Source: a virus
Lineage: Duplodnaviria; Caudoviricetes
IMG/VR virus record: IMGVR_UViG_3300012031_000015
Span: 1-57,591 of that record
Reading direction: 5' to 3' (one strand)
Length of the DNA: 57,591 nt
Numbering within the stretch: the first letter of the stretch is position 1; each line of letters begins with the position of its first letter. The notes below the pieces were generated by a model, which did no database searches, was not told the DNA's origin, and worked only from the letters and a program-made list of their open reading frames with translations. The position numbers and the translations under genes are program-made. Shown here one piece after another: positions 19,782 through 43,700 of the stretch.

Positions 19782-21230
19782 TTATACGCCTGCTAAGTTT
19801 CTCATGCGCTCGAATTCGTATTGTTCTTCGTCACGCACCATTGTATCAGATGTACCACGAAATTGTTCGTATACCTGTCCTACACGCTCAATAAACTGTT
19901 TGGCAGGATTAATGTATTGGTCTCCGTACTCTTTTTCAACCATAGTCAATACGGCCGTTTCTCCTTTGGGGAATGTACCTGTCTCTCTATCGTAATAACT
20001 GAGTACAAATTCACTAATAGGAGTTTGTGCTTCTGCTGCGTTTGTTTCGTCAGCTTGGTCTTCATCACCGTTGTCTTCAGCAGTATAACCTTCGTCGGCC
20101 CACTGCCCTGCTAGTTCGTTAAAGATTGATTCGATCTGAGACTCTTCTGGTACGCAGTTTGGAACTTTCTTTCCGCCTTTGTCTTTCATACCTACTTGCT
20201 TGTAGTTTTTCCAGCACGGATCGTCTGATTCGCTCACAAAGTCGTCCGGTCCCATTTGTTTAGTCTTGGTCTTTTCTGATACAAGATTATATATGTAAGG
20301 GAATACGTCTTTAAGTTCTTCGTTAAACTGTTTAATAGTCAGTTCGTCAATCCAGTTATCTTGTACATGATCCGGTACGTCTTCCATAACTGGGACTACA
20401 AATGTTTCAAATGCTTCTTTATAGTAATTGGTCTTTTGCAATTGTTCTAGTGTCTTTTTAACAGTAGTTAGTCGTTCTTTAACGATGTCCATATAGCCTG
20501 CTAAACTTTCTGCCATAACAGAATTGCGTCCCATGTGAGTCTTAAACTTGCGCAATTTTGCTATCTCTTCAGATAAGCCGGTGATATGACTGCCGAATTC
20601 GTCGAACGGTTTACCACCTTCTGACACATGACGAGCCATTGCTCGAGCTCCACTTAGATGATTAAACGGATATCTAAATCGTTCGCCTTGGTCATTTTCA
20701 ATATAGATCGATCCTACTTTTGTCGAACGAGCACTTGACTTTTCTTGATCTATACTTTCTGTATGCTTGATCACAAGCCTGGCATTGTCTACGTTTTGAT
20801 AACTCATTTTATGAGTGCCGTATAATTTTGATTCTGTCATTTGATCGTCCCCGGGCCGATTAGTAGCTAAAAATTTGTAATCTCTTTTATCTAAATTAGA
20901 CTTACTTATGTCACGTATACTAAAGCCCATCATACGCTTTTTACTGAATACACGTAATTCTTTAAGAAAGCTGTACCAGTGTTTTTGTGTTATACTGTCT
21001 TGGCCTTGCATAAAGTCCTTAGAAAAGATAACGGATAACCCTCGATCCTCGTCGATGCTAACACTAACTTTCCCTAGCTTAACTTCGCCTTCTTTAAACT
21101 CAAAGTCGAAGAACCGAGCGGCTTCCGGCTCGTTAGTAACATTTCCTTCTTGGTCACCTATGGTAACATTAGGAAATCTTCCTCTAATTTTGTTAAAAAG
21201 GTCTTCACCTATCCTATTAAATTCGTTCAT
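19782..21230 (-). CDS. hypothetical late/virion protein
   Basis: TAAATA 4 nt upstream; contains DPCWKNYKQVGMKDKGGKKVPNCVP; ends RNLAGV, like the scaffold protein's RRLAGL. Confidence 0.7.
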   Translation of the reverse strand: MNEFNRIGEDLFNKIRGRFPNVTIGDQEGNVTNEPEAARFFDFEFKEGEVKLGKVSVSIDEDRGLSVIFSKDFMQGQDSITQKHWYSFLKELRVFSKKRMMGFSIRDISKSNLDKRDYKFLATNRPGDDQMTESKLYGTHKMSYQNVDNARLVIKHTESIDQEKSSARSTKVGSIYIENDQGERFRYPFNHLSGARAMARHVSEGGKPFDEFGSHITGLSEEIAKLRKFKTHMGRNSVMAESLAGYMDIVKERLTTVKKTLEQLQKTNYYKEAFETFVVPVMEDVPDHVQDNWIDELTIKQFNEELKDVFPYIYNLVSEKTKTKQMGPDDFVSESDDPCWKNYKQVGMKDKGGKKVPNCVPEESQIESIFNELAGQWADEGYTAEDNGDEDQADETNAAEAQTPISEFVLSYYDRETGTFPKGETAVLTMVEKEYGDQYINPAKQFIERVGQVYEQFRGTSDTMVRDEEQYEFERMRNLAGV

Positions 21231-21240
21231 ATTGTATTTA

Positions 21241-22338
21241 TCAATAGCTAGAGCTTATGAATATGGGCATAGGTGCTTCGTAATCTTCAACATGCCCTGC
21301 TTGGCTAAAAGAGTTATATATCCTAGGATCCCAGTCTTTAAGCACGGTGATCATTCTTAGTGCTAGTAGTGTTGCACTGATTAAATCGTCACCGCGTCCT
21401 GACTTTGCTTGATAACTTGAACCTGTTGCAATATACTGTTTAAGTTCGGATATCATAGGCTTACTGTTTATTATTAGCTTGTCGTTTTCTATCATGCTCT
21501 TGAGGCGACTGCATGCACTTACTTTAGTACTGTGTGTTGTGTTAAATCCCTTGCGGAATTTGCGCACGTGGCCTTTTCTAATTGGCTCGCTTACAAATAG
21601 TCCAGGTATGTTTTCCTCGCCAAAGTCACTAATAACAATTAATGCGGCCTCACCAATACCGTTGTTTTCTACGCTCCAGTATATACCTGTTGGATTGTTC
21701 GTGTGCTCTACCAAATACTTACAAATATCAGACATAATTCTTATCTGGCCAGGAATTGAAGTTTCGTTATGATTCCATTCTGCTACTTGTTCGTAGCTAG
21801 GCAGTTCAAACACTTGAATAGCAGCATTGTCGCCACCTGTGCCCATGCTAGGATCAAGCGCCACTGCGTAGGTGTATTGTGAAGTTGGCTTTTTATACCA
21901 GCGTGTTTGGCCCATGTTAAGTATAGGAGCTTTGCCTTCCATAACTGCTAGTTTTAAGCTGTTAATAAGAGTCTCATCAAATACCAAAAATTCGCAATTT
22001 GAGCTGAGTATTTTGTTTGTGTAATATCGGTGACCGCCTTCAACTTGTATAAGATCATAAACAGGTTCTGAATAACCCAATTCTATTTTGTTAAGTAATT
22101 TTATATCACCCTCAGAAGTAACCACAGTGGTTCCTACTGCAATGTCTTGGGCAGGCTTACAAGTTTCTAGGTCTATGTAAAATTTATGATCGTATGTACA
22201 TTCGACATATGCGCCGCGCTCGAACTCTAGCCGAAGCAACGGTTTTATTCCCATCATGCTAACACCAGCAAAGTCTTGAAACCCCGCTGGTGTTAGCACC
22301 TTATATCCATTAGTATTCTCTTTAAAAATCTTGCTCAT
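21241..22338 (-). CDS. gp17: large terminase, C-terminal nuclease part fused to a split-intein IntC
   Basis: 114-aa IntC ending YTNKILSSN, then CEFL; RNase H-like ALDPSMGTGGDNAA, SVENNGIG, GDDLISA. Confidence 0.92.
   Translation of the reverse strand: MSKIFKENTNGYKVLTPAGFQDFAGVSMMGIKPLLRLEFERGAYVECTYDHKFYIDLETCKPAQDIAVGTTVVTSEGDIKLLNKIELGYSEPVYDLIQVEGGHRYYTNKILSSNCEFLVFDETLINSLKLAVMEGKAPILNMGQTRWYKKPTSQYTYAVALDPSMGTGGDNAAIQVFELPSYEQVAEWNHNETSIPGQIRIMSDICKYLVEHTNNPTGIYWSVENNGIGEAALIVISDFGEENIPGLFVSEPIRKGHVRKFRKGFNTTHSTKVSACSRLKSMIENDKLIINSKPMISELKQYIATGSSYQAKSGRGDDLISATLLALRMITVLKDWDPRIYNSFSQAGHVEDYEAPMPIFISSSY
21997..22338 (-). mobile_element. split intein IntC (114 aa) of TerL
   Basis: KVLTPAGFQDF, block B ECTYDHKF, block F VYDLIQV, end SSN/C. 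Confidence 0.9.
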
Positions 22339-23365
22339 TTAATATCCTATACGAATATTTATTCTCAAATATCCAAACTTCGTAGTTGTAACCCTTGTCT
22401 ATAACAGCTTGGCGTTTTTTAAGGTTATTAACTAATCTATTCTTATACTTTTCCTTGCCATGACCGTCCCACCACCATTGGCTCTTTACTTCAATAATTT
22501 TATTTTCTTTAGGAATATAGATGTCCGGGTAATATTTTAGGTGATGCCTATTTTCAGCTATGTACTCAAATACCTCTATGGCATAGTTTGAATAGTCGTC
22601 GTGCATAATCACGTCATCTTCACTATATTTCAGCTGGTTAAATAATATATCTAAAGCAAGCGGCTCATGGCCGCGTACACCCACAATCTTACCGCTTGGC
22701 ATCTTATAGTCTTTTATTGTGCAGTTGCCTTTATTGGTCTTGCTGGCAGTTGATTTGGTCATCAACACCTGCTCGACTCCGTATCTTTCTAGATTAGTTG
22801 CTCTTCTAAGCGCATTAATTTTATTTTTTTCTTCAACTGACTTGGTTAGGTTAGTTATACTAATCATTTTACTATTGTTGTACTTTTCGTCGCCGTATCT
22901 CGATAGTTTAGTTTGTCTTGACTTTTCCTTTTGACTGTCTAATTCGGAACCCCACGCAACTCCGTATCTCTTTTTAAATGTAGCCTGTGATTTGTTAAGC
23001 TGTTTTTGTTTTTGGTCAGCTGTTCGAATTGCGGCTGCTGCTTTCTTGTGTAGCGAATCAGTTTGTCGTTCTTGCTCAGTCCACTGCTGTTTTGCTTGAG
23101 ATATGGTCTTGCCTCGACAGGCAGGAGTGCCACAGCTTTTTGCATAAGTTTCTGAGCTCGGATAAAATGCTAAACCAGCTCCGCACGCACACTCAGGGCT
23201 AGTCTTGGTAATATATTTTTCGTAGTAATCTTGATAGGTCATCTGGTTAGTTCTTAAATGCCTACCAAACTGCCCATTTGATTTGCAGTATTTGACATTG
23301 TCTATTTTTGATTCTATATAAATTGCAGTGCTCACAGTATTCTCCGTTAAACTGTTGTTGTGCAA
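22322..23365 (-). CDS. free-standing putative homing endonuclease (PD-(D/E)XK type) between the split TerL halves
   Basis: Cys cluster (CACG..CGTPAC), RYG repeats, C-terminal YYPDIYIPKENKIIEVKS..GYNYEVWIF; abuts or overlaps both TerL genes. Confidence 0.75.
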   Translation of the reverse strand: MHNNSLTENTVSTAIYIESKIDNVKYCKSNGQFGRHLRTNQMTYQDYYEKYITKTSPECACGAGLAFYPSSETYAKSCGTPACRGKTISQAKQQWTEQERQTDSLHKKAAAAIRTADQKQKQLNKSQATFKKRYGVAWGSELDSQKEKSRQTKLSRYGDEKYNNSKMISITNLTKSVEEKNKINALRRATNLERYGVEQVLMTKSTASKTNKGNCTIKDYKMPSGKIVGVRGHEPLALDILFNQLKYSEDDVIMHDDYSNYAIEVFEYIAENRHHLKYYPDIYIPKENKIIEVKSQWWWDGHGKEKYKNRLVNNLKKRQAVIDKGYNYEVWIFENKYSYRILNEQDF

Positions 23366-25270
23366 TTATTTATCTATAGTGTTGAACAAGTCGCCTATTT
23401 GTGAGTCAAATATATTACCGTGTGTGTCTTGGAGAGTAATGATTGTAGATGCGCTCACACAACCGTACTCCCTTCTGAATTTTTCAACCCCGATGCGACC
23501 TGTTTCAGCAAGTCGCCACGCTTCGTCTCTATCTGGATGTTCGTCCCATTTAGCAGTAAAACTATGAAATCCGTTGATACCTACTTCCCGTTCGTTACCG
23601 TGGTCATCAAACTTTTGTTCTGCTTGCTTCCAAATTGTAGCAAAAGTATCCTCATCTGAGTTTGGCGTGCTTGTGATAATTGATCTACCACCCGTTGCTA
23701 GAGTAGGAGAGATTGACGTCCAAAATTCTTCAGCAATGTTAGGAGCAACAAATGAGAATTCGTCGGCGTAAAGTAACGAAATACTCATGCCTCGGCCGGT
23801 ATTTCCTGTAGTAGTTTGAGATACGATTCTACTACCATTTTCGAATTCAATACTGCCTTTATTATATGAAGTAACGCCTGCTCTAACGTAATCCGGACAC
23901 ATCTCGTATACATATCTCACCCGTGCCATAATTTCCTGGGCACCAGTGTACTTGTGAGCAGCTATAAGAATAGTTTGATCAGGCTTAAACATAGCGTACC
24001 ATGTTAAGTAGATGGCGGCGCAGGTGGTATTGTGCGTGGGAATCATCGACTTACCACATAAGAATAAATGATCGTCATTGTCTACTTGAATGCATCTCAC
24101 AGGAACTGACTGTGTTTCGGTTATTCTCTTTATATAGTGTCGAGTATTTTTTTGATGGCCTTTACACTTTTGTTGAAATTTTGCTTTTCTACTAAGTTTA
24201 AACACAGTGTGTGCAGTGGTTGCAAATCCAATAGTGTAATACTTTTGATCCTCTATGACTTTATAGCTGCACCTATTTTTAATTCCTAAAGACGACAGTA
24301 GTTCCTGCACCTGGACAATTAAATTCTTGTTCTTTTGATAAAACTCACATCTTCCGCTGCGTTTATCTACTGATCCGTCAGAATCCATTAGTCCTTGAAT
24401 TAACTCAACTCGTTGATTAACAGATGCTCTCATATAAATTTCGGGAATATGCTTATTTTTTAATAAATTATTCTTGTTTAGTTTTCCGCGCAATCCGTAA
24501 ATTGTTCTATTTTCGCTAACCACGCTAGTGCCGTTTGTATAAGACTTAGATATTTCAAAACCTCGGCTTACTATTTCTGGAATAATTTCTTTGTTATCAT
24601 CAATGCATTGGGTATATCTAGCTCCTGCACTTTCGCCGTCTCCTAGCCAAAAGCCTAATACATACGGGTCTACAGGCAGTTCTATTTCGTCAGTGGTAAT
24701 CTCTTTGGCAGCATCTATGTACACACATGTATTGTGAGATTCAACGTAGTCTTTTATTTCTTTAGTAGTAAGTGTCTTGCGGCCAGCTCTCCAAAAGCCA
24801 GTGTTAACACTCCACAAATGGTCCTCATCGGCAGTAATGACGTCGCCGTTATCAAATTCAACAGCATAACAGTTATGATTGTTCATTACTTCTGTGGCAA
24901 ATGTGACCTTAGTAGCGTTACCGTTAGCGTCGAGTATGTGATCTCCTACGCTAAGATCTCCCATAGTAGTCCATCCAGAGACAGTAGGAATAGGGGTATC
25001 AAGAGCTAGTGCCTTTCCCGTTTGGCGTGGCATCATGTTAATATTGAAACGATAGTTGTGGTAACTATGCATCAATCTTACTTGATATTCGTAGGGAGCA
25101 AACAGCAGCTTGCCTTTTACTGGGTGCTGTATATATGCAAAGTGCTCAGCAAAGTACATGTACCCATTGTCAGGATCCATACACTTTACAAGGTGTTGAA
25201 TCTGCTCTTCGGTATATGTATCTTTTGTATGAGCCTTTTTGGTTAGGACTCCGTCAAGCGATTTAGACAT
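23366..25270 (-). CDS. gp17: large terminase, N-terminal ATPase part with a cis intein and a C-terminal split IntN
   Basis: PYEYQ, RQTGK[intein]TT, LLYADEF, ITSTPN, FRREYG, then CVSAST..K*. Confidence 0.93.
   Translation of the reverse strand: MSKSLDGVLTKKAHTKDTYTEEQIQHLVKCMDPDNGYMYFAEHFAYIQHPVKGKLLFAPYEYQVRLMHSYHNYRFNINMMPRQTGKALALDTPIPTVSGWTTMGDLSVGDHILDANGNATKVTFATEVMNNHNCYAVEFDNGDVITADEDHLWSVNTGFWRAGRKTLTTKEIKDYVESHNTCVYIDAAKEITTDEIELPVDPYVLGFWLGDGESAGARYTQCIDDNKEIIPEIVSRGFEISKSYTNGTSVVSENRTIYGLRGKLNKNNLLKNKHIPEIYMRASVNQRVELIQGLMDSDGSVDKRSGRCEFYQKNKNLIVQVQELLSSLGIKNRCSYKVIEDQKYYTIGFATTAHTVFKLSRKAKFQQKCKGHQKNTRHYIKRITETQSVPVRCIQVDNDDHLFLCGKSMIPTHNTTCAAIYLTWYAMFKPDQTILIAAHKYTGAQEIMARVRYVYEMCPDYVRAGVTSYNKGSIEFENGSRIVSQTTTGNTGRGMSISLLYADEFSFVAPNIAEEFWTSISPTLATGGRSIITSTPNSDEDTFATIWKQAEQKFDDHGNEREVGINGFHSFTAKWDEHPDRDEAWRLAETGRIGVEKFRREYGCVSASTIITLQDTHGNIFDSQIGDLFNTIDK
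23369..23461 (-). mobile_element. split intein IntN (31 aa) of TerL
   Basis: CVSASTIITLQDTHGNIFDSQIGDLFNTIDK*: block A plus the IxDL motif. Confidence 0.88.
24029..25012 (-). mobile_element. 328-aa class 3 intein with LAGLIDADG homing endonuclease in the TerL Walker A
   Basis: Ala1 (ALALDTPIPT); WCT triad (DHLW, VRCIQV, PTHN/T); LGFWLGDG and LIQGLMDSDG. Confidence 0.9.
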
Positions 25271-25273
25271 TTA

Positions 25274-26053
25274 TTATGCTATTTCAATTTCGAATTCTTT
25301 TCTAAAATACTCTGCGCCCATTCTACTAATAGTAGCAGTTTTCCATGCTTCAGATCTATCAAAGAACTTATCCCAGGATGCTGTAAACGGCACAAAGTGG
25401 TTTTTACTAGTGTCGTTCCATATATTCATAAAAGGATCAGTCTTGTGATTAGGAGTCGACGTAATAATTGTACGTCCTGTGTTGAGCATACACGGAAGAA
25501 TTTCTTCAATAAACTTTTTTGCAACTTCTGGCTTACAAAATGCATATTCATCACAATACAAAATGTCTAGGCTGCGACCCTTCCCTGTGTATTCTGCTAG
25601 GACTGAACCATAAATATTAGAGCCGTTTGCAAAAGCAAGCTCTTTCTTATTATCTTTTATTATTTTTGGTGTTAAGTAATGCGGACAATGATGGTAGATA
25701 TATCGCATCTTTTCTAAAACATCACAAGACATTGCTAATTTATTCGAGGTAATTAATATTTCTTGGCTGGGCTTGAACATTGCATCCCACAATAAGTATA
25801 TTGCAGCGCACAGAGTCTTGCCTGACTGCCGAGCAAGCATATTAATACTAAACTGATTATTATGAAAACTCTCCATAAGTTCAGCTTGAGCATCAAATAA
25901 CTCTATAGAGATATTACCGATTATTGGGTGCAAGACATTTACAAAATTATTCGCAAAATATAGGAATCCTGATTCAGGATCAGAGCACTTAATTAAATGC
26001 TCTATTTGATCCTCTGTATTAGTATTAGATAAGTTTTTTAGTAGTTGTGTCAT
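25274..26053 (-). CDS. terminase ATPase-domain-only paralogue (intein-free)
   Basis: ARQSGKT, ILYCDEY, ITSTPN, FRKEFE; colinear with the TerL N-extein; no nuclease domain. Confidence 0.85.
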   Translation of the reverse strand: MTQLLKNLSNTNTEDQIEHLIKCSDPESGFLYFANNFVNVLHPIIGNISIELFDAQAELMESFHNNQFSINMLARQSGKTLCAAIYLLWDAMFKPSQEILITSNKLAMSCDVLEKMRYIYHHCPHYLTPKIIKDNKKELAFANGSNIYGSVLAEYTGKGRSLDILYCDEYAFCKPEVAKKFIEEILPCMLNTGRTIITSTPNHKTDPFMNIWNDTSKNHFVPFTASWDKFFDRSEAWKTATISRMGAEYFRKEFEIEIA

Positions 26054-26062
26054 TTTACTCCC

Positions 26063-26680
26063 TTACTTCTTTTTCGATTTCTTATCTTTTACAGCTTTCT
26101 TCATCGGCTCTTTCTTATCACCATCTTTATCCACATCAAGGAAATCAGGCTTAGCTTTTTTTTCATTAAGTGCTCTTAAAAGCTGTGCTTTGATAGTCTC
26201 AACAGCCATTGCGTTGTCACCGTCCTGTGCAGATTTATATGCTTTCTTCTCGCGATTTAGGCCACCAGCTAAATCTTTGGTCATATAGCTAGTGTCCTGA
26301 TACTCTTCGTCTGGCTCGTTATCGTATCCTTCTAGGCCCATTTCCCCTTTTTTCATAGAAGCATCGTCATCGTCATCGTCTGCCATGCCCGGGCCGTCCA
26401 TTTCTGGTGCAATAGCGGGCATTTCTGATGAAGTCTCTTTATCACCATCTACCATTCCTCTAAAATTTTCCATGTCCTGGCGCATTGGCATCATTTCTGG
26501 GCTAAATTCTTCTGCACTAGACAACCCTGCATTTTTCATCATAGCTACTAGATCAGCTACATGTTCTTTGCCTGATGCATTTAATGATATATTCATTGTG
26601 ACCGGCGAACCGCTGTTTTGGCCTGGCATTTGTTCCATGCCACATTCGTTTAGCGACTCTAATAATTTTTTCATTTCCAT
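26063..26680 (-). CDS. hypothetical acidic protein, probable internal head protein
   Basis: Start MEMKKLLES; EF-hand-like DVDKDGDKKE; Lys-rich tail. Confidence 0.65.
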   Translation of the reverse strand: MEMKKLLESLNECGMEQMPGQNSGSPVTMNISLNASGKEHVADLVAMMKNAGLSSAEEFSPEMMPMRQDMENFRGMVDGDKETSSEMPAIAPEMDGPGMADDDDDDASMKKGEMGLEGYDNEPDEEYQDTSYMTKDLAGGLNREKKAYKSAQDGDNAMAVETIKAQLLRALNEKKAKPDFLDVDKDGDKKEPMKKAVKDKKSKKK

Positions 26681-26681
26681 C

Positions 26682-27176
26682 TTAATTCTCCTGGGTTGCG
26701 TTAGTGCGCTCTTTGGTAGCAGTTTCAAGTTCCTTTAAAAGGTCCATAACACGATTCTGTCCTACGTTGTGTTGAGCACTCTCGCCGCCCAAATCATTTT
26801 TAGTAAGTAGCGGCTCATAAATGTTGCTTTCGCTTTGATTCTGATAAAGCTCTAGTGGTTCGTTCGGATTGCGAACAATAATGTTACTGTGAGCCACAGA
26901 ACATACTCGTCCTAAATACTCTTGTAATACTTGCGGAGTTGTAGGATATTCGAGCTCTGCTTCAAAGTAAGTAACTTCCATATTTTGTAGATTTGGAAAA
27001 TCTAATGGACGTTCTTGAATAGGAGTTTTCTTTCCTGTGCTAATATCAATAATGCTAAATTTCTTTAGCGCTGTTTCCATATGGTCTTGAAAGTGTTCAG
27101 GAAGCGGTCCTGCTACACCAATCTTAAACTGATATGTTTTTTTAGACTCATTTAAAAGTTGTGTAAAAGATTTCAT
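26682..27176 (-). CDS. hypothetical late protein
   Basis: MKSFTQLLNES N-terminus; TAAATA upstream at 27195-27200. Confidence 0.7.
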   Translation of the reverse strand: MKSFTQLLNESKKTYQFKIGVAGPLPEHFQDHMETALKKFSIIDISTGKKTPIQERPLDFPNLQNMEVTYFEAELEYPTTPQVLQEYLGRVCSVAHSNIIVRNPNEPLELYQNQSESNIYEPLLTKNDLGGESAQHNVGQNRVMDLLKELETATKERTNATQEN

Positions 27177-27206
27177 GTAGATTTATCCTAGTTATATTTA
27201 TTTATC

Positions 27207-27250
27207 AATAACATAGGCAACAACACACATAGTTTGTTGCCTATGTTATT
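27207..27250 (-). terminator. 17-bp stem-loop after putative TerS
   Basis: AATAACATAGGCAACAA / TTGTTGCCTATGTTATT. Confidence 0.55.
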
Positions 27251-27740
27251 TAGGCATTCCTTTAAGTTTTTCTAATAGACTGTTGCGATCAGTAACTACA
27301 TATCCTTCGCCGTTGACCATACTATTGTCACTAGGTTTATCGTCTTTGTCCATTTTCTCTTTCTTTAGCTGTAGTTCGACCATTTTTAACTTCTTGTCCA
27401 TTTTTGCAACTTTGGCATCAAGACTAGTTTTAAGCATGCCGCCGGCGGTTTCAAAAATTCTAGCTGAATAACGAGCTTCTACGTTCATTCCCAGATCCAT
27501 CAGGTCGTCATAGGCTGTCATTGCTTTTAGTGCAATCTCGTTCAGTTCACTGTCTGACACCTCGCCTAGTCCTTTGACAGCAGGTAGTGCTGAACTTATC
27601 TTATCAAACTCTTCTATTTGTGCAAACGCTTTCTTCATTGACACTGATTCGTAATTTGTTTTTTTACTTTCTTCTTTAGCTTCCTCTACAAGTGCTTTTG
27701 ACTCTGGCAAATCTAATAAATCTTCCAGTCTGCGGGTCAT
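27246..27740 (-). CDS. putative terminase small subunit
   Basis: Helical 164 aa, ARIFETAGGMLK resembling gp16, C-terminal DRNSLL; located near TerL. Confidence 0.5.
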   Translation of the reverse strand: MTRRLEDLLDLPESKALVEEAKEESKKTNYESVSMKKAFAQIEEFDKISSALPAVKGLGEVSDSELNEIALKAMTAYDDLMDLGMNVEARYSARIFETAGGMLKTSLDAKVAKMDKKLKMVELQLKKEKMDKDDKPSDNSMVNGEGYVVTDRNSLLEKLKGMPK

Positions 27741-27774
27741 TATGTTCTCTCCATATATTATATGCTAACATTAT

Positions 27775-28224
27775 TTATCGTCGCTTGGTGTTACCCTTAG
27801 TGCCAGTATATATATCGTCCTCAGTAACTACCCTAAAAATGATGCCCTTCTGTTTACAGAATGCGCGGGCGGCCTCCCACTTGGCTTGATTTATTGCGTA
27901 ATGGGTTTGATTAAATTTAGAGCGGCCTAGTCTTTCTTTTATAGCTTGACTAGCAGGTTTTACTTCTATTAACTCTACCCGTTGTTTTCCACTTTTATCG
28001 TTGTAGGCAATAAAGAAGTCCGGTACGTATACTGACGCTTTGCCAGTTAGCGGATTCTTATAAGGGATTTTAATTGCTTCGCTTGCCCATTGAGAAATTG
28101 AGGGGTGTTCATCACAAAATTTCATAAAATGAAATTCCCAACCACTTCTGTACGTGGGTATTTTATTTCCTACGTATTTGTCTGGATTTTTTAGAGTGAA
28201 CTTTCCTTGAGCGAAGCGTGACAT
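27775..28224 (-). CDS. gp4: head completion nuclease (T4 gp4-like)
   Basis: KNPDKYVG, YRSGWE, WASE, YVPDF, IEVKP, NQAKWEAA, FRVVTE. Confidence 0.88.
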   Translation of the reverse strand: MSRFAQGKFTLKNPDKYVGNKIPTYRSGWEFHFMKFCDEHPSISQWASEAIKIPYKNPLTGKASVYVPDFFIAYNDKSGKQRVELIEVKPASQAIKERLGRSKFNQTHYAINQAKWEAARAFCKQKGIIFRVVTEDDIYTGTKGNTKRR

Positions 28225-28589
28225 TATACTATGATCTGCCTTTGATCAAACAACTGAGTAAGTCTGTCGACTTTGTAACCAACTGCACTGGTCTTGCTTC
28301 TATTTATATTGAGTATTTGAGCAATTACATTACTCAGTTGTACATCTGTTGCTCCTTTTAATGTGTCAATTAACTGAAAAACTGATATATTATCAACTGC
28401 GGCTTGTTGCAAAATAATACTAGCAGTATTAGTGGCAGCAACCTTGTCAAATCCTCTCTTTAAGAAATACCCAACTACTGCATCTATTTCGTTAGCATTA
28501 AACGATAGTTCCTGGCCGTAAAAGTTATCAAAAAATCTAGTAGTAGAGACTGATGCATTCTGTGTACTTACACTGTCAGATCGTGCCAT
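28224..28589 (-). CDS. hypothetical protein (tail/baseplate module)
   Basis: 121-aa ORF coupled to gp4. Confidence 0.65.
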   Translation of the reverse strand: MARSDSVSTQNASVSTTRFFDNFYGQELSFNANEIDAVVGYFLKRGFDKVAATNTASIILQQAAVDNISVFQLIDTLKGATDVQLSNVIAQILNINRSKTSAVGYKVDRLTQLFDQRQIIV

Positions 28590-28591
28590 AT

Positions 28592-29818
28592 TTATTCTCC
28601 GTCACTGTTAATTGCACTCTGTGCAAATGATGATGTTTTCTTGTCGCCACCTGTAATCTTGCCCTGAAGATTTGCATCAATAGCTGCGCGGCCGCTGTCA
28701 CTAGTAGCCACGTAGTCTGCATAATTTGTGCCTTCTACTGTGCTTGCATTGAGAGCCTGAGCAGTAAAACTTTCTTTTGCGCTGGGACTGTTATTTAACT
28801 TAGATATTAATGCGTCAGGATTAGAAACATTGTTGCTACTTGCACTCAGTGCAGATACGTTAACCGCTTGCTGCGTATCTTTGCTAGGAACTGCTAACCC
28901 AGGCAATGCACCTATTAATCCTCGGCCTAGATCCACTAATAATGAAGGCTGTTTATTACTTGCGCTATTACTAGCCCTGCCAGGAAGTAAATTTCTAACT
29001 GTACTCGAAGACGATTCGTTTAATATGGGGCCAAGTATTGCAGAAAAAAGACTTTCATCTTCTTGTGTAGGATATTGAAGTGGACTTTTTACAGTATCAT
29101 ATCTTGTTTCATCTGATGTAAATCCAGGCGGGGTATCAGTTTTGATATCTCCGTGATTATATATTACGCTTTCGTAGGTTAATACTAGGGTGTTTTCCAT
29201 TTGGCCGCCGCTGTCGCTGTATTCTAATACGTCATGGCCCCATTGGCTGATTAACGGGTTAACTAAGGTATAACTGAACCACTTCTTTCTTGCAAGTTGA
29301 AAAATTTTAATATAGTTAAAAAACGGGCCGTTATTAGTGGTGTCTAATCCGTATCTTGGTACTCTCTCTTTATATTTGTCTCGAGGATCATACGCACCTT
29401 GATTTAATTGGTGTCTTCCGTCGTTATAGTAGTATTTGTAATACTCTTGTAACATAGACCGAGTTAGACCTGTATTGTCATCGTGAAACTTAATAGTCAC
29501 ATCTTGGTAATCTATACGAGTTTGCACATTCTTTTTTCTATTGTATTGTTGCTTATTTTCTATGCTTGCTCGATACTGAGGTAGTTCAACACTCTTAGCA
29601 AGTACACCTATCTCTTTTTGAAACTTAACAGTGTTTGAGTCGTACTGGTTTCCTACTTCGTCTCTTGTTTGAAATACAACATGATAAAGAAACTTGTTTT
29701 TAGGTGCTAGCGCGTGGCCATGCTCAGTGAATAGTTGATGGGCGTGGCGTGCATCCCTAAGCGACACTTCGTTAGTTCGTGAATTTAGATTGTCTAGAAA
29801 ATTATTTAAGAAGCTCAT
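28592..29818 (-). CDS. tail-tube-fold baseplate/tube initiator (gp48/gp54-like)
   Basis: Tube-like motifs AKSVELP, QYNRK, VTIKFHDD, LTYE; follows gp19. Confidence 0.6.
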   Translation of the reverse strand: MSFLNNFLDNLNSRTNEVSLRDARHAHQLFTEHGHALAPKNKFLYHVVFQTRDEVGNQYDSNTVKFQKEIGVLAKSVELPQYRASIENKQQYNRKKNVQTRIDYQDVTIKFHDDNTGLTRSMLQEYYKYYYNDGRHQLNQGAYDPRDKYKERVPRYGLDTTNNGPFFNYIKIFQLARKKWFSYTLVNPLISQWGHDVLEYSDSGGQMENTLVLTYESVIYNHGDIKTDTPPGFTSDETRYDTVKSPLQYPTQEDESLFSAILGPILNESSSSTVRNLLPGRASNSASNKQPSLLVDLGRGLIGALPGLAVPSKDTQQAVNVSALSASSNNVSNPDALISKLNNSPSAKESFTAQALNASTVEGTNYADYVATSDSGRAAIDANLQGKITGGDKKTSSFAQSAINSDGE

Positions 29819-29858
29819 AACTATATTTATGTCATTTGTTTAAGTGAGAATACAATAG

Positions 29859-29885
29859 AAAACAGAGACATATAGCCTCTGTTTT
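29859..29885 (-). terminator. terminator after tail tube gene
   Basis: AAAACAGAG..CTCTGTTTT with T-tracts on both strands. Confidence 0.55.
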
Positions 29886-29907
29886 TACTATTATATACCA
29901 ACATACA

Positions 29908-30552
29908 TTAACCAGTTGCTTGAGTGCCGCCGACTGAGTCTACTACAGCTCGAGCAAAGCTTTCGCCAATACCGTTCTGTTGTTCGTCTGCACCGTACTG
30001 AATAGCATTGTCATAACGTATAGTTAACGCAACTGTTACAGCGTCACTAGTAGAATATGCCAGTGTGTTGTAGTTTGCTGATTCAATATAACACCCAACT
30101 AAGTGGAATCTATCAATAACATTAGGACCGCTTGCGCCGTTGCCACCATCAAGAATTTCAATCTTTGTTTGAAACTTATAGGTGCCACCTGCGACCGCAC
30201 TTGATTGTTCAAAGAAGTCAAACTGCTTTTGAAGCTGCTGACCTACAACTTTTTGAATGTTGTTGTTTGCATCTTCACGTAAGTTAAGAGTAATTGGTTC
30301 CCAAGTAGGTTTACCAGCAAAATAACTTCTACTGTTATAGGCATCCACAGTTACTTGTTCAAATGTCACATTAGGACGAGTTACGTCAATTACTTGGCGT
30401 GATACTTCTCTAACACCGTCCGGACCTCCGCCAGTTCCGAAGCTGTCAAATAGTACTCTGAATCGGTATTGCATTTTAGGCATCAACAGTGAGGAGTTAG
30501 ATCCGCCTGCTTCTGTTGGTACGCTAATGTTTTGTAAAGTTGTGATTGGCAT
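29908..30552 (-). CDS. gp19: tail tube protein
   Basis: QYRFRV, YFAGKPTWEPITL, LTIRYD; follows sheath. Confidence 0.85.
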   Translation of the reverse strand: MPITTLQNISVPTEAGGSNSSLLMPKMQYRFRVLFDSFGTGGGPDGVREVSRQVIDVTRPNVTFEQVTVDAYNSRSYFAGKPTWEPITLNLREDANNNIQKVVGQQLQKQFDFFEQSSAVAGGTYKFQTKIEILDGGNGASGPNVIDRFHLVGCYIESANYNTLAYSTSDAVTVALTIRYDNAIQYGADEQQNGIGESFARAVVDSVGGTQATG

Positions 30553-40755: not shown

Positions 40756-43700
40756 TTAAATAGTTATCATAGTTTTTACTACTTTGTAAGTGTGTGAAGC
40801 TGCTGTGGCAGCAGTTGCCAGTAAGGAAACACTACCTCCAGAATATATTGCTGTAAAACTGGCCAACGGATCTGCAGAAGTATGAATTATTGCGTACTCT
40901 ACGAAATCCGCCCTAACGCCGCTGTCATGCACTACTAGAATTTCCTGCGCTTGATAATCACCTGTGCTGTTGTTTGTTACCTGTACTATCATCTTTGCAG
41001 ACCTAAATTGTGAACCAAGAAACGTGGCCACTGTCTGTGGAGACGTAGAGCTGGCAGTTGTGGTCTCTGAATCTAAACTAAAATCTTTAACTTGAAAGCT
41101 GTCAGTAACTTCTATATTATTAGCGGTAATCGAGTTAGACCAAGCAGGTGATCCATTGATTGATGTTAAAATTGTATTCGCAACACCAATGGGCAATCGG
41201 CTCATGCTGTCTGTATTAGTAGACAACTCGGCCGCCGCAAATATTATATCACCAGCAATATAACTTTGTATGTTGGTGCCGCCCTTGTTTACTGGCACGG
41301 CTCTGTTTAGGTTTTCTGGATTAATAAAGAACGAACTTGGACTACCACCCAGCGTTGCGGCATCCAGTGTACCACCATCAGCCGACGAAGTAATATCAAC
41401 TTCACCTTGTGGAGAAACCGTAAACTGGCTTTTATTAAAAGCCGATACACCAACGTTTGTATAGTCTACGTTGCCGGCTGCGCTGCTTGTGGGTAGTATT
41501 TCTAGCCTTAGATCGCCGTAGTAACGGTTATCAGATCCAACTGTATTAGAGTTACCCACAAGGTTCAATGGGCTGTCAGGGTTTATTCTAATAGTGCTAA
41601 CAGCTTCAACCCATGAAGAATCGCCTCGTAAAAACGTACTGGTATTTGCAACGCCGCTAGCAAGCCTGGACGTAGAAATAGTACCTGATACTATGTTTGC
41701 TGCGTCTACATTTGTAGCAGACAATGAACTGTAATTATCTAATTCTCTGCTGGATGTATCAGTTGTTCCAGTAATTTCCACATTCTGTAAAGTAAATGTT
41801 GCAGTTCCAGTACCAGGTGAAACTGTTAATGATTCTTCTGATTGTACTATACCGTTTATGCTCTGAACTGCAAATCCTCTATCGTTGTGCAGTGTAAATG
41901 AGTTTGTAGTAGGAGCTCCAACGTAATAGAAATTGCCAGATACAAGCCCGTCGGGCAGGTCAGCTCCTACTATTCTAACTGGATCACCGACCTTAAACCC
42001 GTGATTGTTTACTACTATTCTATTAGCAGAAAGTGATACTGTTCTTTTTCTAAACAGGTGGGTTCCTAACTGACTAGTAGTAAAGTTTACTTGTTGGGCT
42101 GGATTCAAATCATAACGAGTGTATACTGCAAAACTTGTATTGTTTATGACCTTTACATAAAATATTCCTATTTGGCTCAGACCCCCTATTGAGGCATTAC
42201 CGTTATTATCATATTCAATAGGATCACCGTCGGTAAATCCGTGACCACTAGAAACTATTATATGTGAAACGTTATAATCTATTTCTCCGCTAGCAGCGTC
42301 TCCGTCAAAACTGATAGAATTAAACGAAGTTAAATTATTAGTCTCAAGCACCGGTGCATTATTATCTGCTATATAATCTCTTCTTGTATCTGACGCAGTA
42401 AACCTTATAAAGTTTCCTGTAATATCAACATACAATCTCTTTTCTGTTGCACTTACCTCTACAGTAAATGCAGTGCCTCCTGATCTGCCACCAATAAGTA
42501 CGTCATTAGTTACGGTGAGCGTATCCCCCACAACATAGCCTGCGCCACCTCTTCTTAAATCAATTATAGTAACTTCTCCAGCAGATACTGTTATATCTGC
42601 TCTTGCGCCGACTCCCGAGCCAGATGAACTGTCCAGCGGTACATTAATATAAGTTCCACTTGTGCTATACCCAGATCCACTTGGCAAAGCACCGGCATTA
42701 ATTAAGATTGTTAGACCTTGAACAAAATCAGTTATTTGTCCTTGTGCTCGGCTGCCAGCCGACGTTACACTAGCACCAACAGTGAAGTCAAGCGCAGTAC
42801 CACTTTCTGGATCATCTATTTTTAGGAACTGAGAGTCACCGTCGTCACTTAGGAAAAAGTTTTGCTGAAATTCTGCGTTGACGTCGGCAGTGACAACATA
42901 CAATCCTGCTGGACTTTCAACTCCATTAATCTCTAGTGTATTAGCAATACCTTGTATAAATTCACCAACTACGTTTACTAGAACCACAACAGTATCAGCA
43001 ATAACATCTTCTCTTACAAATCCTTCTGAACCAGAGCTAGCTTGTGTAAATTTGTCTCCCTTGATTACTGTTATGTTTTGATCTACAATAATAGATTGTT
43101 GCTGATATGCCTCAATAACAATATCACCACTCAACACTTCCTGCGGAGGGATATCGTTCACTAGTTCTAGCCTGGCCTCAAAAGAAGACAGATTGTATGA
43201 ATTAAATGCCCTTGTAGGCGGAATTACATCGACGTTCAACTGACCAGATGAGTTTAGCTGTACTACCGCGCCCGGTACAGAAGATGTGGAAACTCTTTTG
43301 TCAAGGAAATCACCAAGACGATTATCTAAGAATAGTCTTTGAGAAAGTTGAGTGGTCAGTCTTTCGTTAGATGCTCCACCGGGTTCATTATCACCAAGAC
43401 CTGGGTCAGTTGATATTTGAGATATAGTAGCTCCGGAAAGATTAAGAGAGATAGAATCAAGACGCGCAATGGAGACTCTATTTGCAAATATCACATTACC
43501 TGTTCTATTTTCTGCTCTTATAAAATTACCTACTTTAAAGTCGCCTAATTCGTTTGTACCCGAAGCGTATACTCTTCCTGGTAGATCTTCAAATTGTTCA
43601 AAGCGCTCTATGCTTTTACCACCGTTGCTAGGTAATGCATTATAATCAGTACCTGATCCTGCATATTCCCATGTGTGAGCAGACGAGTTAACAATAGAAG

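What the first reader, a model, noticed from the sequence alone, without database searches (positions are those of the whole stretch)
25274..26053. Intein-free ATPase-only terminase paralogue ending at the split-intein site, 3 bp upstream of TerL-N
Seen: colinear with the TerL N-extein throughout (EDQIEHLIKCSDP vs EEQIQHLVKCMDP; RQSGKTLCAAIYL vs RQTGK|TTCAAIYL; YCDEY vs YADEF; ITSTPN in both). It ends FRKEFEIEIA*, where spliced TerL reads FRREYG-CEFL. It has intact Walker A/B and coupling motifs, no intein and no IntN, so it cannot be ligated to the nuclease half. Inference: a modular packaging motor with two alternative ATPase subunits, one splicing-dependent and nuclease-linked and one splicing-independent. 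Alternatives are a decoy for terminase-sensing defences (Avs/STAND NTPases recognise terminase and portal) or a backup against intein burden. I know no description of this arrangement; it is the best candidate here for a new system.
Basis: partly seen in the sequence, partly recalled or inferred. Interest (0 to 1): 0.78.

Follow-up and report, generated by a model that had tools for sequence, protein, structure and literature searches.

The report
Nuclease-less terminase ATPase paralogue gene
A giant phage carries, just ahead of its DNA-packaging enzyme gene, an extra stand-alone copy of only the motor (ATPase) half of that enzyme; the copy is a real, selected, fast-evolving gene that phages swap among themselves, and its job is not yet known.

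Summary
Window 26053-25274 (- strand) encodes a 259-aa protein with the large-terminase (TerL) ATPase fold. Walker A, Walker B and coupling motifs are intact. There is no nuclease domain and no intein. It ends four codons past the split-intein site, with TAA TAA before the terL ATG.

It is not a one-off:
- A 90%-identical copy sits in the same place on another contig (dN/dS 0.40).
- Four further allele types (36-47% identical) form one short-only clade with it.
- Alleles with known context sit directly upstream of terL in related IMG/VR phages.

The intein-centred reading is only partly supported.
- The paralogue lies beside uninterrupted terL in 3 of 7 loci.
- It is absent from 54 of 54 nearest relatives with enough upstream sequence. 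Three intein-bearing terL loci in that survey also lack it.
- It is still enriched next to intein-bearing terL (4/7 versus 3/68).

It evolves far faster than TerL yet keeps 30-33 of 37 TerL-conserved residues. A ~1.1-kb tract carrying it was recently exchanged between diverged phages.

Best reading: an accessory, horizontally exchanged, catalytically competent ATPase-only TerL paralogue. It is the first cistron before terL and probably acts on the packaging machinery. The mechanism is unproven. I found no description in print.

The parts
25274..26053 (-). ATPase-only TerL paralogue CDS (259 aa plus TAA stop). Walker A is RQSGKT, Walker B is LYCDEY, the coupling motif is TSTPN. It ends FRKEFEIEIA.
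26058..26062 (-). GGGAG Shine-Dalgarno-like motif 4 nt before the paralogue ATG. It lies directly after the TAA (26063-26065) of the upstream acidic-protein gene.
   Evidence: read from sequence
25271..25273 (-). Second TAA between the paralogue stop and the terL ATG. No Shine-Dalgarno-like motif lies before the terL ATG. The paralogue and terL are in the same frame.
23366..25270 (-). TerL-N (634 aa): ATPase N-extein, interrupted in Walker A by a LAGLIDADG intein and ending in a 31-aa N-part of a split intein.
24029..25012 (-). LAGLIDADG intein inside Walker A (RQTGK | A...HN | TT). It is precisely absent from a ~94%-identical strain in run X6.
   Evidence: comparison with uninterrupted TerL; contig skips 987 nt with 3 nt between
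23369..23461 (-). Short N-part of the split intein after ...FRREYG (CVSASTIITLQ...).
   Evidence: same junction in L025; terminase split intein with a long C-part described in PMC2677866
22322..23365 (-). Free-standing DUF7487 ORF (347 aa, weak PHROG homing-endonuclease hit) between the two split-intein halves.
21241..22338 (-). C-part of the split intein (about 114 aa, ends ...ILSSN) followed by the TerL nuclease C-extein (CEFLVFDETLIN...).
26063..26728 (-). Acidic, fast-evolving protein gene upstream of the paralogue. PA5oct has a structural protein at the same position. In relatives its 3' ~200 nt form the left arm of the exchanged paralogue tract.

Best explanation
The ORF is a functional accessory gene: a stand-alone large-terminase ATPase domain (the T4 gp17 N-domain fold) without the nuclease domain.

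Origin. It most likely arose by a partial tandem duplication or recombination of terL that broke at the ATPase-nuclease hinge. It has since evolved as its own short-only lineage.

Expression. It sits immediately upstream of terL as the first cistron. In L020 a hairpin plus a promoter-like motif, of the kind that precedes terL in relatives, lies before the paralogue. In the window there is GGGAG before the paralogue, none before terL, and TAA TAA ATG at the junction. The paralogue should therefore be made with, and probably in at least the same amount as, TerL. This step is inferred.

Protein. It keeps the nucleotide-binding and catalytic residues and is therefore most likely an active ATPase (inferred). 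The rest of the protein changes quickly.

Mobility. The gene is moved between related phages by homologous recombination through the conserved 3' end of the upstream gene and the 5' end of terL (shown).

Mechanism I commit to. It is an auxiliary or regulatory ATPase subunit that acts on the terminase-DNA complex, by mixed assembly with TerL or by modulation of it. It is dispensable for packaging as such and is not mechanistically dependent on inteins. This last step is inference only.
For: Real and selected.
- A 90%-identical homologue has the same end and the same TAATAA-ATG junction.
- dN/dS is 0.40, P 0.0026 against neutrality, versus 0.01-0.18 in five neighbouring genes.

One old short-only lineage.
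- Window, L007, L020, L021, L022 and P0047 form one clade, UFboot 100 / SH-aLRT 98.
- No full-length protein above 41% identity appears among the best 150 of 5186 hits in 1.84 billion representatives.
- A local duplication is not rejected. Holding the paralogue clade together with the cognate TerL clade gives p-AU 0.72, and that tree has the higher likelihood.

Catalytic core kept.
- The five alleles keep 30-33 of 37 columns that are at least 85% conserved in 84 full-length TerLs. They match the consensus at only 25-35% of the other columns.
- Walker A K and Walker B DE are present in window, L007, L020, L021 and L022.
- The model matches the T4 gp17 ATPase domain at TM 0.86.

Fast evolution.
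- Alleles are 36-47% identical to each other, while their cognate TerL ATPase domains are 77-94% identical.

Accessory.
- 0 of 54 nearest relatives and 0 of 80 broader TerL loci have a second ATPase-like ORF.

Exchanged.
- L025 and L024 share a ~1.1-kb tract at about 100% identity. It covers the 3' ~200 nt of the acidic gene, the paralogue and the first ~90 nt of terL. The genomes are otherwise 70-77% identical.
- The paralogue shows 0 synonymous differences, while dS is 0.8 over terL codons 1-86.

Operon position.

Independent of inteins: uninterrupted terL follows the paralogue in L020-L022.
Against: - No expression data: no RNA run holds the stretch.
- No evidence of binding to TerL, portal or DNA.
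- A partner of the highly conserved TerL would be expected to evolve slowly. The paralogue instead evolves like a conflict gene.
- The position that aligns with the conserved Arg 10 residues before Walker B is Lys in window, L007 and L022. That Arg is present in 98% of TerLs, and by my recall of the P74-26 work it is the trans-acting arginine finger. The change would not be expected of a standard ring subunit.
- T4 work as I recall it found that the isolated ATPase domain does not package DNA.
- Relatives package without the gene.
- In the wider class of short TerL-like proteins, 14 of 39 rows have lost Walker A and/or Walker B residues. So ATP hydrolysis is not what the wider class has in common.
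- The enrichment next to inteins (P 0.0009) is left unexplained unless it reflects shared recombination history.
Confidence: 0.4

Rival explanations
1. The paralogue is a splicing-independent back-up ATPase that buffers the load of inteins and split inteins in terL. Mixed motors would need fewer fully spliced TerL molecules.
For: The paralogue is enriched beside interrupted terL: 4 of 7 versus 3 of 68, Fisher P 0.0009, or P 0.0056 with L023/L024 collapsed. In this clade inteins sit in Walker A, in Walker B and at the hinge. L025 needs three splicing events. Inteins turn over fast: the Walker-A intein is absent from a ~94%-identical strain. Catalytic residues are kept.
Against: Three carriers have uninterrupted terL (L020-L022). 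Three intein-bearing relatives (L060, L076, L103) show no second ATPase-like ORF. The loci are few and phylogenetically non-independent. Both elements travel by recombination at terL, so shared history could produce the association. The paralogue has no means of joining the nuclease half. An ATPase-only subunit is not known to translocate DNA (recalled).
Confidence: 0.15
2. The paralogue is a conflict factor. It could be a mimic of the TerL ATPase domain that interferes with terminase-sensing host immunity, with satellites, or with the terminase of competing phages.
For: The gene shows the evolutionary signature of a conflict gene.
- It is patchy: 0 of 54 relatives carry it.
- It has very divergent alleles beside a conserved TerL.
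- A cassette was transferred recently.
- dN/dS is raised relative to the neighbours.
- Active-site residues, which SeAvs3 reads according to the introduction of PMC13601566, are the part that is conserved.
- In the wider short class 14 of 39 rows are catalytically dead, as expected of mimics.
Against: Passages of PMC13601566 state that the ATPase domain alone strongly activates EcAvs2 and is sufficient for Upx. A plain extra ATPase domain should therefore trigger these sensors rather than block them. No known anti-defence family matched, although PADLOC and anti-defence libraries were not searched. No mechanism gives a cis advantage against competitors, because terminase acts in trans.
Confidence: 0.2
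3. The paralogue is a by-product without a protein function. It would be a leftover 5' half of terL from aberrant recombination, for instance repair of an endonuclease break at the hinge. The frame would be kept open only because terL translation is coupled to it, and it would be carried along by recombination.
For: - It ends 3-4 codons past the split-intein insertion site in all alleles.
- terL has no Shine-Dalgarno motif or promoter-like motif of its own in carriers, whereas in paralogue-free relatives a hairpin plus a TAAATA-like motif precedes terL.
- Constraint is relaxed: dN/dS is 0.40 against at most 0.18 in the neighbours.
- It is dispensable in relatives.
- It is associated with intein-bearing terL.
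Against: - dN/dS is significantly below 1.
- Selective retention of 30-33 of 37 TerL-conserved residues at 36-47% overall identity cannot be explained by frame maintenance alone.
- There is a single short-only clade with long branches and no close full-length relative.
- A tract was exchanged very recently, which looks like a gain.
Confidence: 0.15

Closest known systems
T4 gp17 N-terminal ATPase domain (laboratory construct N360; PDB 2O0H, 2O0J; full length 3CPE)
   Same: Same fold (TM 0.86, rmsd 2.2-2.4 A, 26% identity). Same Walker A with its P-loop Arg-Gln, Walker B Asp-Glu and TSTPN-type coupling motif. It stops at the hinge before the nuclease domain.
   Different: Here the truncated form is a natural, separately encoded gene that exists beside a complete terL. 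It has diverged to 41-47% identity from the neighbouring TerL. It differs from 99% of TerLs at one conserved Thr and, in this allele, at the conserved Arg before Walker B.
'Fractured genes': split intein plus free-standing endonuclease. This includes a gp17-like terminase with an unusually long C-part (Dassa et al. 2009, PMC2677866, passages read). By recall, the AceL-TerL split intein belongs here too.
   Same: The neighbouring terL (TerL-N / DUF7487 ORF / IntC-TerL-C) has this arrangement. The paralogue ends at that very insertion site.
   Different: The paralogue has no intein part and cannot be spliced to anything. The passages I read do not mention an extra ATPase-only copy.
Xanthomonas phage Xoo-sp13 gp242 and Sinorhizobium phage Phosso gp344 (both deposited as 'terminase small subunit')
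   Same: Both are stand-alone TerL ATPase-like ORFs of 231 and 281 aa that end at the same hinge motif (...DEDFELVSSK...FENQFNCEFKDAQI). The best PHROG is phrog_5989, as for the window protein. Xoo-sp13 gp242 lies directly upstream of an uninterrupted terL.
   Different: Both have lost the Walker A Lys and the Walker B Glu, so they are pseudo-ATPases. They are only 24-25% identical to the window protein and lie outside its clade. Phosso gp344 is 52 kb from terL, near the capsid gene.
phi29-type packaging ATPases and other ASCE motor subunits without nuclease activity (e.g. phi28 gp11, PDB 7JQ6)
   Same: They show that a viral packaging ATPase can work without a nuclease activity. There is a weak fold match (rank 36).
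   Different: Those enzymes are the sole motor and keep a C-terminal domain. Here a complete TerL is also present, and the paralogue has no C-terminal domain at all.
Small terminase (TerS), the gene that usually precedes terL
   Same: Same gene position immediately upstream of terL and the same operon.
   Different: The fold is an ASCE ATPase, not a TerS oligomer. There is no TerS family hit in Pfam or PHROGs.

Membership tests
Large terminase ATPase domain (Pfam Terminase_6N, T4 gp17 type) | Profile match above the curated cut-off | tested here: met
   PF03237 scores 56.3 bits against cut-off 22, residues 72-254. The best PHROG is phrog_5989, E 1.5e-37.
Large terminase ATPase domain (Pfam Terminase_6N, T4 gp17 type) | Walker A (RQxGK[TS]), Walker B (hhhhDE) and coupling motif (TSTPN) | tested here: met
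   RQSGKT, LYCDEY and TSTPN are aligned to 84 full-length TerLs.
Large terminase ATPase domain (Pfam Terminase_6N, T4 gp17 type) | ASCE fold of the T4 gp17 N-domain | tested here: met
   Model pLDDT 93. 2O0J/2O0H match at TM 0.86, E 2e-22.
Large terminase ATPase domain (Pfam Terminase_6N, T4 gp17 type) | ATP hydrolysis | not testable with these tools
   Inferred from the motifs only.
Complete large terminase (TerL) | C-terminal RNase H-like nuclease domain (Terminase_6C) in the same protein or joined by splicing | tested here: not met
   There is no Terminase_6C hit. The ORF stops 4 codons after the hinge site and has no intein part.
N-extein half of a split-intein ('fractured') terL | IntN segment starting with Cys/Ser directly after the hinge motif | tested here: not met
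   It ends ...FRKEFEIEIA and then a stop. The true N-halves (window TerL-N, P0008, P0028, P0060, P0091, P0107) carry 27-39 further residues starting with Cys.
Small terminase (TerS) | TerS family or profile match, or TerS fold | tested here: not met
   No TerS hit in Pfam or PHROGs. The fold is an ATPase.
ATPase-only TerL paralogue lineage (defined here: window, L007, L020, L021/23/24/25, L022, P0047) | One clade apart from full-length TerLs, ending at the hinge | tested here: met
   UFboot 100 / SH-aLRT 98. All members are 257-272 aa and stop 2-4 residues past the intein site.
ATPase-only TerL paralogue lineage (defined here: window, L007, L020, L021/23/24/25, L022, P0047) | Position immediately upstream of terL | tested here: met
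   8 of 8 members with context: window, L007 and L020-L025. The context of P0047 is unknown.
Anti-defence decoy of terminase sensors (Avs1-3, Upx) | Binds the sensor and blocks its activation | not testable with these tools
   The only evidence is indirect. Literature passages say that ATPase domains activate EcAvs2 and Upx.

The most novel reading that the evidence does not exclude
Phages of this abundant jumbo-phage group trade a diffusible, nuclease-less motor subunit as a cassette. The subunit would co-assemble with TerL into mixed packaging rings. It would thereby change motor behaviour, or make the phage tolerant of terL genes shattered by inteins and homing endonucleases. The catalytically dead relatives in Xoo-sp13, Phosso and many metagenomic clusters would be regulatory pseudo-subunits of the same kind. 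That would make hetero-oligomeric terminase motors a natural, recurrent design.
Probability: 0.15. Interest if true: 0.85.

Novelty: new variant of a known kind. Interest (0 to 1): 0.62.

Why it matters
By my recollection, terminase motors are described as homomeric rings of one TerL protein. A natural, selected, separately encoded ATPase-only copy expressed with TerL would question that picture. So would the wider set of short TerL-like proteins, a third of which are catalytically dead. At the least, they would reveal an unrecognised accessory layer of regulation, or of conflict, around genome packaging.

There are three practical consequences.
- Such ORFs are currently deposited as 'terminase large subunit', 'terminase small subunit' or 'hypothetical', which can mislead TerL-based phylogeny and annotation of the packaging strategy.
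- An extra terminase ATPase domain is a potential extra ligand for Avs2- or Upx-type immune sensors.
- The locus gives a clean natural series for studying how selfish elements and accessory genes travel together at terL: the same paralogue allele occurs with 0, 1 and 3 inteins.

Tried and rejected
Searches and predictions that gave nothing usable.
- Single-sequence structure prediction gave pLDDT 38 and was discarded. It was redone with an alignment.
- Complex prediction of the L021 paralogue with the L021 TerL, both given as alignments, returned no answer (score 0.00, controls not run). This is no evidence either way.
- No RNA holder was listed for window 21241-27740, so nothing can be said on expression.
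- Megablast of window 20000-30000 against the phage collection found no match.
- Promoter and terminator scans of 21000-28500 found numbers close to those in shuffled sequence and nothing informative.
- Scans with the single window protein, P0047, P0069 and P0020 gave no close relatives in IMG/VR. The genomic context of the other short clades therefore stays unknown. Those with intact motifs could be first exons or N-halves of split terL genes rather than paralogues.

Ideas considered and dropped.
- RaK2 ORF110 ('PRQTGTTT') looked by eye like a degenerate paralogue. It has no significant BLAST, Pfam or TerL-PHROG match.
- I first read the L025/L024 high-identity tract as ending at the Walker-A intein site. 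The finer profile shows that it ends about 90 nt into terL. It is ordinary homologous exchange, not intein-bounded co-conversion.
- Recent relic of a foreign full-length terL: rejected, because no full-length relative above 41% identity exists among the listed representatives and the short forms are one clade.
- Read-through fusion with TerL: the paralogue is in frame with terL in 4 of 5 allele types. The separator is TAA, or TAA TAA in the window. One allele is out of frame, and the chance probability is about 0.05. Not pursued.
Full report
**What the window is.** The window is a whole IMG/VR virus record of 57,591 bases, estimated 16% complete. That implies a jumbo phage. The genes on the - strand are, in order:
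- tail sheath (33799-30626);
- tail tube and a tube-like protein;
- a 121-aa ORF;
- a TnsA-like 'head closure' nuclease;
- two 164-aa ORFs;
- an acidic 221-aa protein;
- the paralogue in question;
- the pieces of terL;
- a 482-aa structural protein;
- a gp32-like SSB;
- UvsX.

The same order is found in Pseudomonas phage PA5oct upstream of terL and in Klebsiella phage RaK2 and Xanthomonas phage Xoo-sp13 downstream. In those phages a single terL gene stands where the window has the paralogue plus terL.

**The observation.** ORF 26053-25274 (-) encodes 259 aa.
- It aligns colinearly with the TerL-N ORF on both sides of the Walker-A intein: 47% identity over residues 10-82 and 41% over 80-254.
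- It matches Pfam Terminase_6N above threshold and nothing else.
- It has RQSGKT, LYCDEY and TSTPN, ends FRKEFEIEIA, and is followed by TAA TAA ATG.
- An AlphaFold2 model made with a 33-row alignment (pLDDT 93) superposes on the T4 gp17 ATPase domain with TM 0.86.

The neighbouring terL is a 'fractured gene'. It has a LAGLIDADG intein in Walker A and a short IntN after FRREYG. A DUF7487 ORF follows, then a 114-aa IntC fused to the nuclease domain. A terminase with such an unusually long C-part of a split intein was described by Dassa et al. 2009 (PMC2677866, passages).

**Is the paralogue a gene?** A 3,425-base metagenome contig (L007) carries a 258-aa homologue, 90% identical. It has the same neighbours, the same C-terminus and the same TAATAA-ATG junction to MSKSLDG....
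- Nei-Gojobori counts give 18.8 synonymous and 31.2 nonsynonymous differences, dN/dS 0.40.
- That is significantly fewer nonsynonymous changes than neutrality predicts (P 0.0026).
- Constraint is still much weaker than in the five upstream genes (dN/dS 0.01-0.18).

**A lineage of its own.** A search of 1.84 billion representative proteins gave 5186 hits at E up to 0.001. Among the best 150, no full-length protein is more than 41% identical. Many hits are 250-270 aa proteins that stop within a few residues of the same hinge motif (F-x-x-E-Y-E-C-x-F).

A scan of IMG/VR with the three closest short proteins returned 9 loci.
- Six of them (L020-L025) have an ATPase-only ORF followed, after one stop codon and 0-16 further bases, by a stop-free frame carrying terL. 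The terL ATG follows 12-18 bases after the stop.
- L026 has a lone short ORF with nothing recognisable downstream in the 590 bases left.
- L027 and L028 are distant single TerL-like ORFs.

In a 148-row quick tree and a 65-row careful tree, the window protein, L007, L020, L021, L022 and P0047 form one clade (UFboot 100 / SH-aLRT 98). This clade is apart from the clade of their own TerLs, which also has 100/98 support. For those trees I left out three kinds of row: rows covering under 93% of the profile (except Xoo-sp13 gp242), P0003, and the duplicates L023-L025, P0006 and P0010.

Holding the paralogue clade and the cognate TerL clade together is not rejected (p-AU 0.72), and that tree even has the higher likelihood. 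A partial duplication of the resident terL in an ancestor of this phage group therefore remains the simplest origin. Long branches make the exact placement unsafe.

**How it evolves.** The TerL ATPase domains of L020, L021 and L022 are 92-94% identical to each other and 77-80% identical to the window's. The paralogues of the same phages are only 36-47% identical to one another.
- Despite this, each allele keeps 30-33 of the 37 columns that are at least 85% conserved in 84 full-length TerLs. It matches the TerL consensus at only 25-35% of the remaining columns.
- The kept columns include the Walker A Arg-Gln-Gly-Lys, the Walker B Asp-Glu, the Ser-Thr-Pro coupling motif and the upstream Gln.
- Eleven columns carry a residue shared by at least 4 of 5 allele types but found in at most 10% of TerLs. 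One example is Leu where 83 of 84 TerLs have Thr.
- The conserved Arg ten residues before Walker B is Lys in the window, L007 and L022 alleles. By my recollection of the P74-26 work it is the trans-acting finger.

This pattern indicates selection on the nucleotide site with free or driven change elsewhere.

**Distribution.** With an alignment of the nuclease domain I collected the best 80 of at least 577 IMG/VR relatives (78-85% identical to the window's nuclease).
- 68 of the 80 contain the 5' part of terL.
- 65 of those 68 terL genes are uninterrupted. Three (L060, L076, L103) are split.
- 54 of the 68 have at least 900 nt upstream of terL.
- None of the 54 has a second ATPase-like ORF, even in six frames at E up to 1.
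- The 12 loci cut at the 5' end were not counted.

A broader set of 80 TerL loci, found through the hinge motif, also has none within the fetched flanks. The paralogue is therefore a rare accessory gene.

In paralogue-free relatives terL is usually preceded by a GC-rich hairpin with a T-run and a TAAATA-like motif. In L020 that element precedes the paralogue instead. In all carriers the paralogue-terL spacer is only 3-19 bases. In the window a GGGAG precedes the paralogue, and nothing comparable precedes terL. The paralogue is thus the first cistron of the terL transcription unit. This is inferred from sequence.

**Inteins.** The paralogue-bearing loci with known terL state are:

| Locus | Inteins in terL |
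|---|---|
| window | 2 |
| L020 | 0 |
| L021 | 0 |
| L022 | 0 |
| L023 | 1 (split intein in Walker B) |
| L024 | 1 (split intein in Walker B) |
| L025 | 3 |

- The comparison of 4 of 7 with 3 of 68 gives Fisher P 0.0009, or P 0.0056 with L023/L024 collapsed. There is an association.
- The loci are few and related, and the carriers were found by a different search from the non-carriers.
- The same paralogue allele (97-99% identical protein) occurs with 0, 1 and 3 inteins. Intein-bearing relatives exist without the paralogue.
- In sequencing run X6 one contig of a ~94%-identical strain lacks the Walker-A intein precisely (987 bases skipped, 3 bases between) while keeping the split intein. A separate contig carries the paralogue.

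Inteins thus come and go on a shorter time scale than the paralogue. The paralogue does not depend on them.

**Mobility.** L025 and L024 are 70-77% identical over their flanks. They are about 100% identical over roughly 1.1 kb, covering the last ~200 nt of the acidic gene, the whole paralogue and the first ~90 nt of terL.
- The paralogue shows 0 synonymous and 3 nonsynonymous differences plus a four-codon repeat.
- terL codons 1-86 show dS 0.8.

This is a very recent transfer by homologous recombination through conserved flanks. In that allele the first 120 nt of the paralogue are also 75% identical to the first 120 nt of terL.

**The wider class.** Of 39 rows that I classed as 'short' (full profile coverage, at most 12 residues after the hinge), 8 are my own loci.
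- 25 of the 39 keep both the Walker A GK[TS] and the Walker B DE. 14 have lost one or both.
- All 84 full-length rows keep the Lys, and 81 keep DE. The other three look like intein insertions at that site.

Two cultivated jumbo phages have dead members that end at the same hinge. Xoo-sp13 gp242 lies directly upstream of an uninterrupted terL. Phosso gp344 lies 52 kb from terL. Both are deposited as 'terminase small subunit'. The genomic context of the other short clusters could not be obtained. Those with intact motifs may include N-halves of otherwise split genes.

**What it does.** The following are shown:
- it is a selected ORF;
- it has the ATPase fold with a complete catalytic set;
- it is the first cistron before terL;
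- it is accessory, fast evolving and recently exchanged;
- it can stand beside uninterrupted terL.

The following are inferred: it is expressed with TerL and hydrolyses ATP. I commit to an auxiliary or regulatory role at the terminase-DNA complex (confidence 0.40). The reasons are its operon position, its descent from the motor domain and the retention of the nucleotide site.

The rivals are:
- a conflict factor (0.20);
- a functionless by-product kept open for translational coupling (0.15).

The evolutionary signature fits the conflict-factor reading best. However, according to passages of PMC13601566, a terminase ATPase domain alone activates EcAvs2 and suffices for Upx, so a plain decoy should trigger rather than blunt these sensors. 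The by-product reading is contradicted by the selective retention of functional residues and by dN/dS below 1.

The complex prediction gave no verdict, and no RNA data exist.

**Novelty.** Three full-text searches found no description of a stand-alone TerL ATPase paralogue. The passages matching 'terminase' in the jumbo-phage survey PMC7824862 did not mention one either. PHROGs already groups such proteins with TerL (phrog_5989, labelled 'terminase large subunit'). The family is therefore known by sequence but not recognised as a separate entity. I rate it a new variant of a known kind, of moderate to high interest. The interest lies less in the link to inteins than in a natural, mobile, nuclease-less terminase subunit and its catalytically dead relatives.

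Noticed in passing
window 24029-25012 (-): The LAGLIDADG intein in Walker A begins with Ala and is followed by Thr as the first C-extein residue. It is shared at 40-45% identity, intein included, with RaK2-like Klebsiella and Escherichia jumbo phages. It is precisely absent from a ~94%-identical strain in run X6.
   Followed up: partly
window 22322-23365 (-): A DUF7487 ORF (347 aa, TTG start as listed, overlaps the start of IntC-TerL-C by 17 nt) lies between the split-intein halves. It has only a weak PHROG homing-endonuclease hit (E 9e-4). It may be the free-standing endonuclease of this fractured gene.
   Followed up: no
L023:1129-4079, L024:6757-9707, L025:6769-10570: Relatives carry a further split intein inside Walker B (...SLLYC | LDGDTT... 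and ...NSHQ | CDEFAF), with about 900 nt between the halves. L025's terL comes in three ORFs with three inteins.
   Followed up: partly
L002:5232-5927 (Xoo-sp13 gp242); L036:3809-4654 (Phosso gp344): Both are deposited as 'terminase small subunit'. Both are degenerate TerL ATPase-domain paralogues that have lost the Walker A Lys and the Walker B Glu and end at the hinge motif. This is a likely mis-annotation.
   Followed up: yes
L039-L116, about 90 nt before terL (e.g. L039:6086-6175): In paralogue-free relatives terL is preceded by a conserved GC-rich hairpin with a T-run and a TAAATA-like motif 8-12 nt before the ATG. This looks like a terminator followed by a late-promoter-like element. In L020 the same element precedes the paralogue instead.
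   Followed up: partly
window 25268-26053 (-); L020, L021, L023-L025 junctions: The paralogue and terL are in the same reading frame, separated only by TAA (TAA TAA in the window), in 4 of 5 allele types. L022 is out of frame. Chance probability is about 0.05.
   Followed up: no
window 26063-26728 (-) and homologues in L020-L025: The acidic low-complexity protein upstream evolves almost as fast as the paralogue (43-59% identity between phages whose TerL is 87-90% identical). Its lysine-rich C-terminal tail is conserved and serves as a recombination arm.
   Followed up: partly
run X6 on window 25241-27379: Contigs break at both ends of the paralogue. The paralogue contig has a lower depth (5.7) than its flanks (14-17). 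One contig leaves the window sequence at 26082 into unlike sequence. This may mean a mixed population with another allele or without the paralogue.
   Followed up: no
L026:5088-5813: A further short TerL-ATPase-like ORF (26% identical, Walker A GKT and Walker B DE present, coupling motif lost) ends at ...NWYREFE. No terL is recognisable in the 590 nt that remain downstream.
   Followed up: no
window 40756-46296 (-): A very long ORF of 1846 aa lies in the structural region. It was not examined.
   Followed up: no
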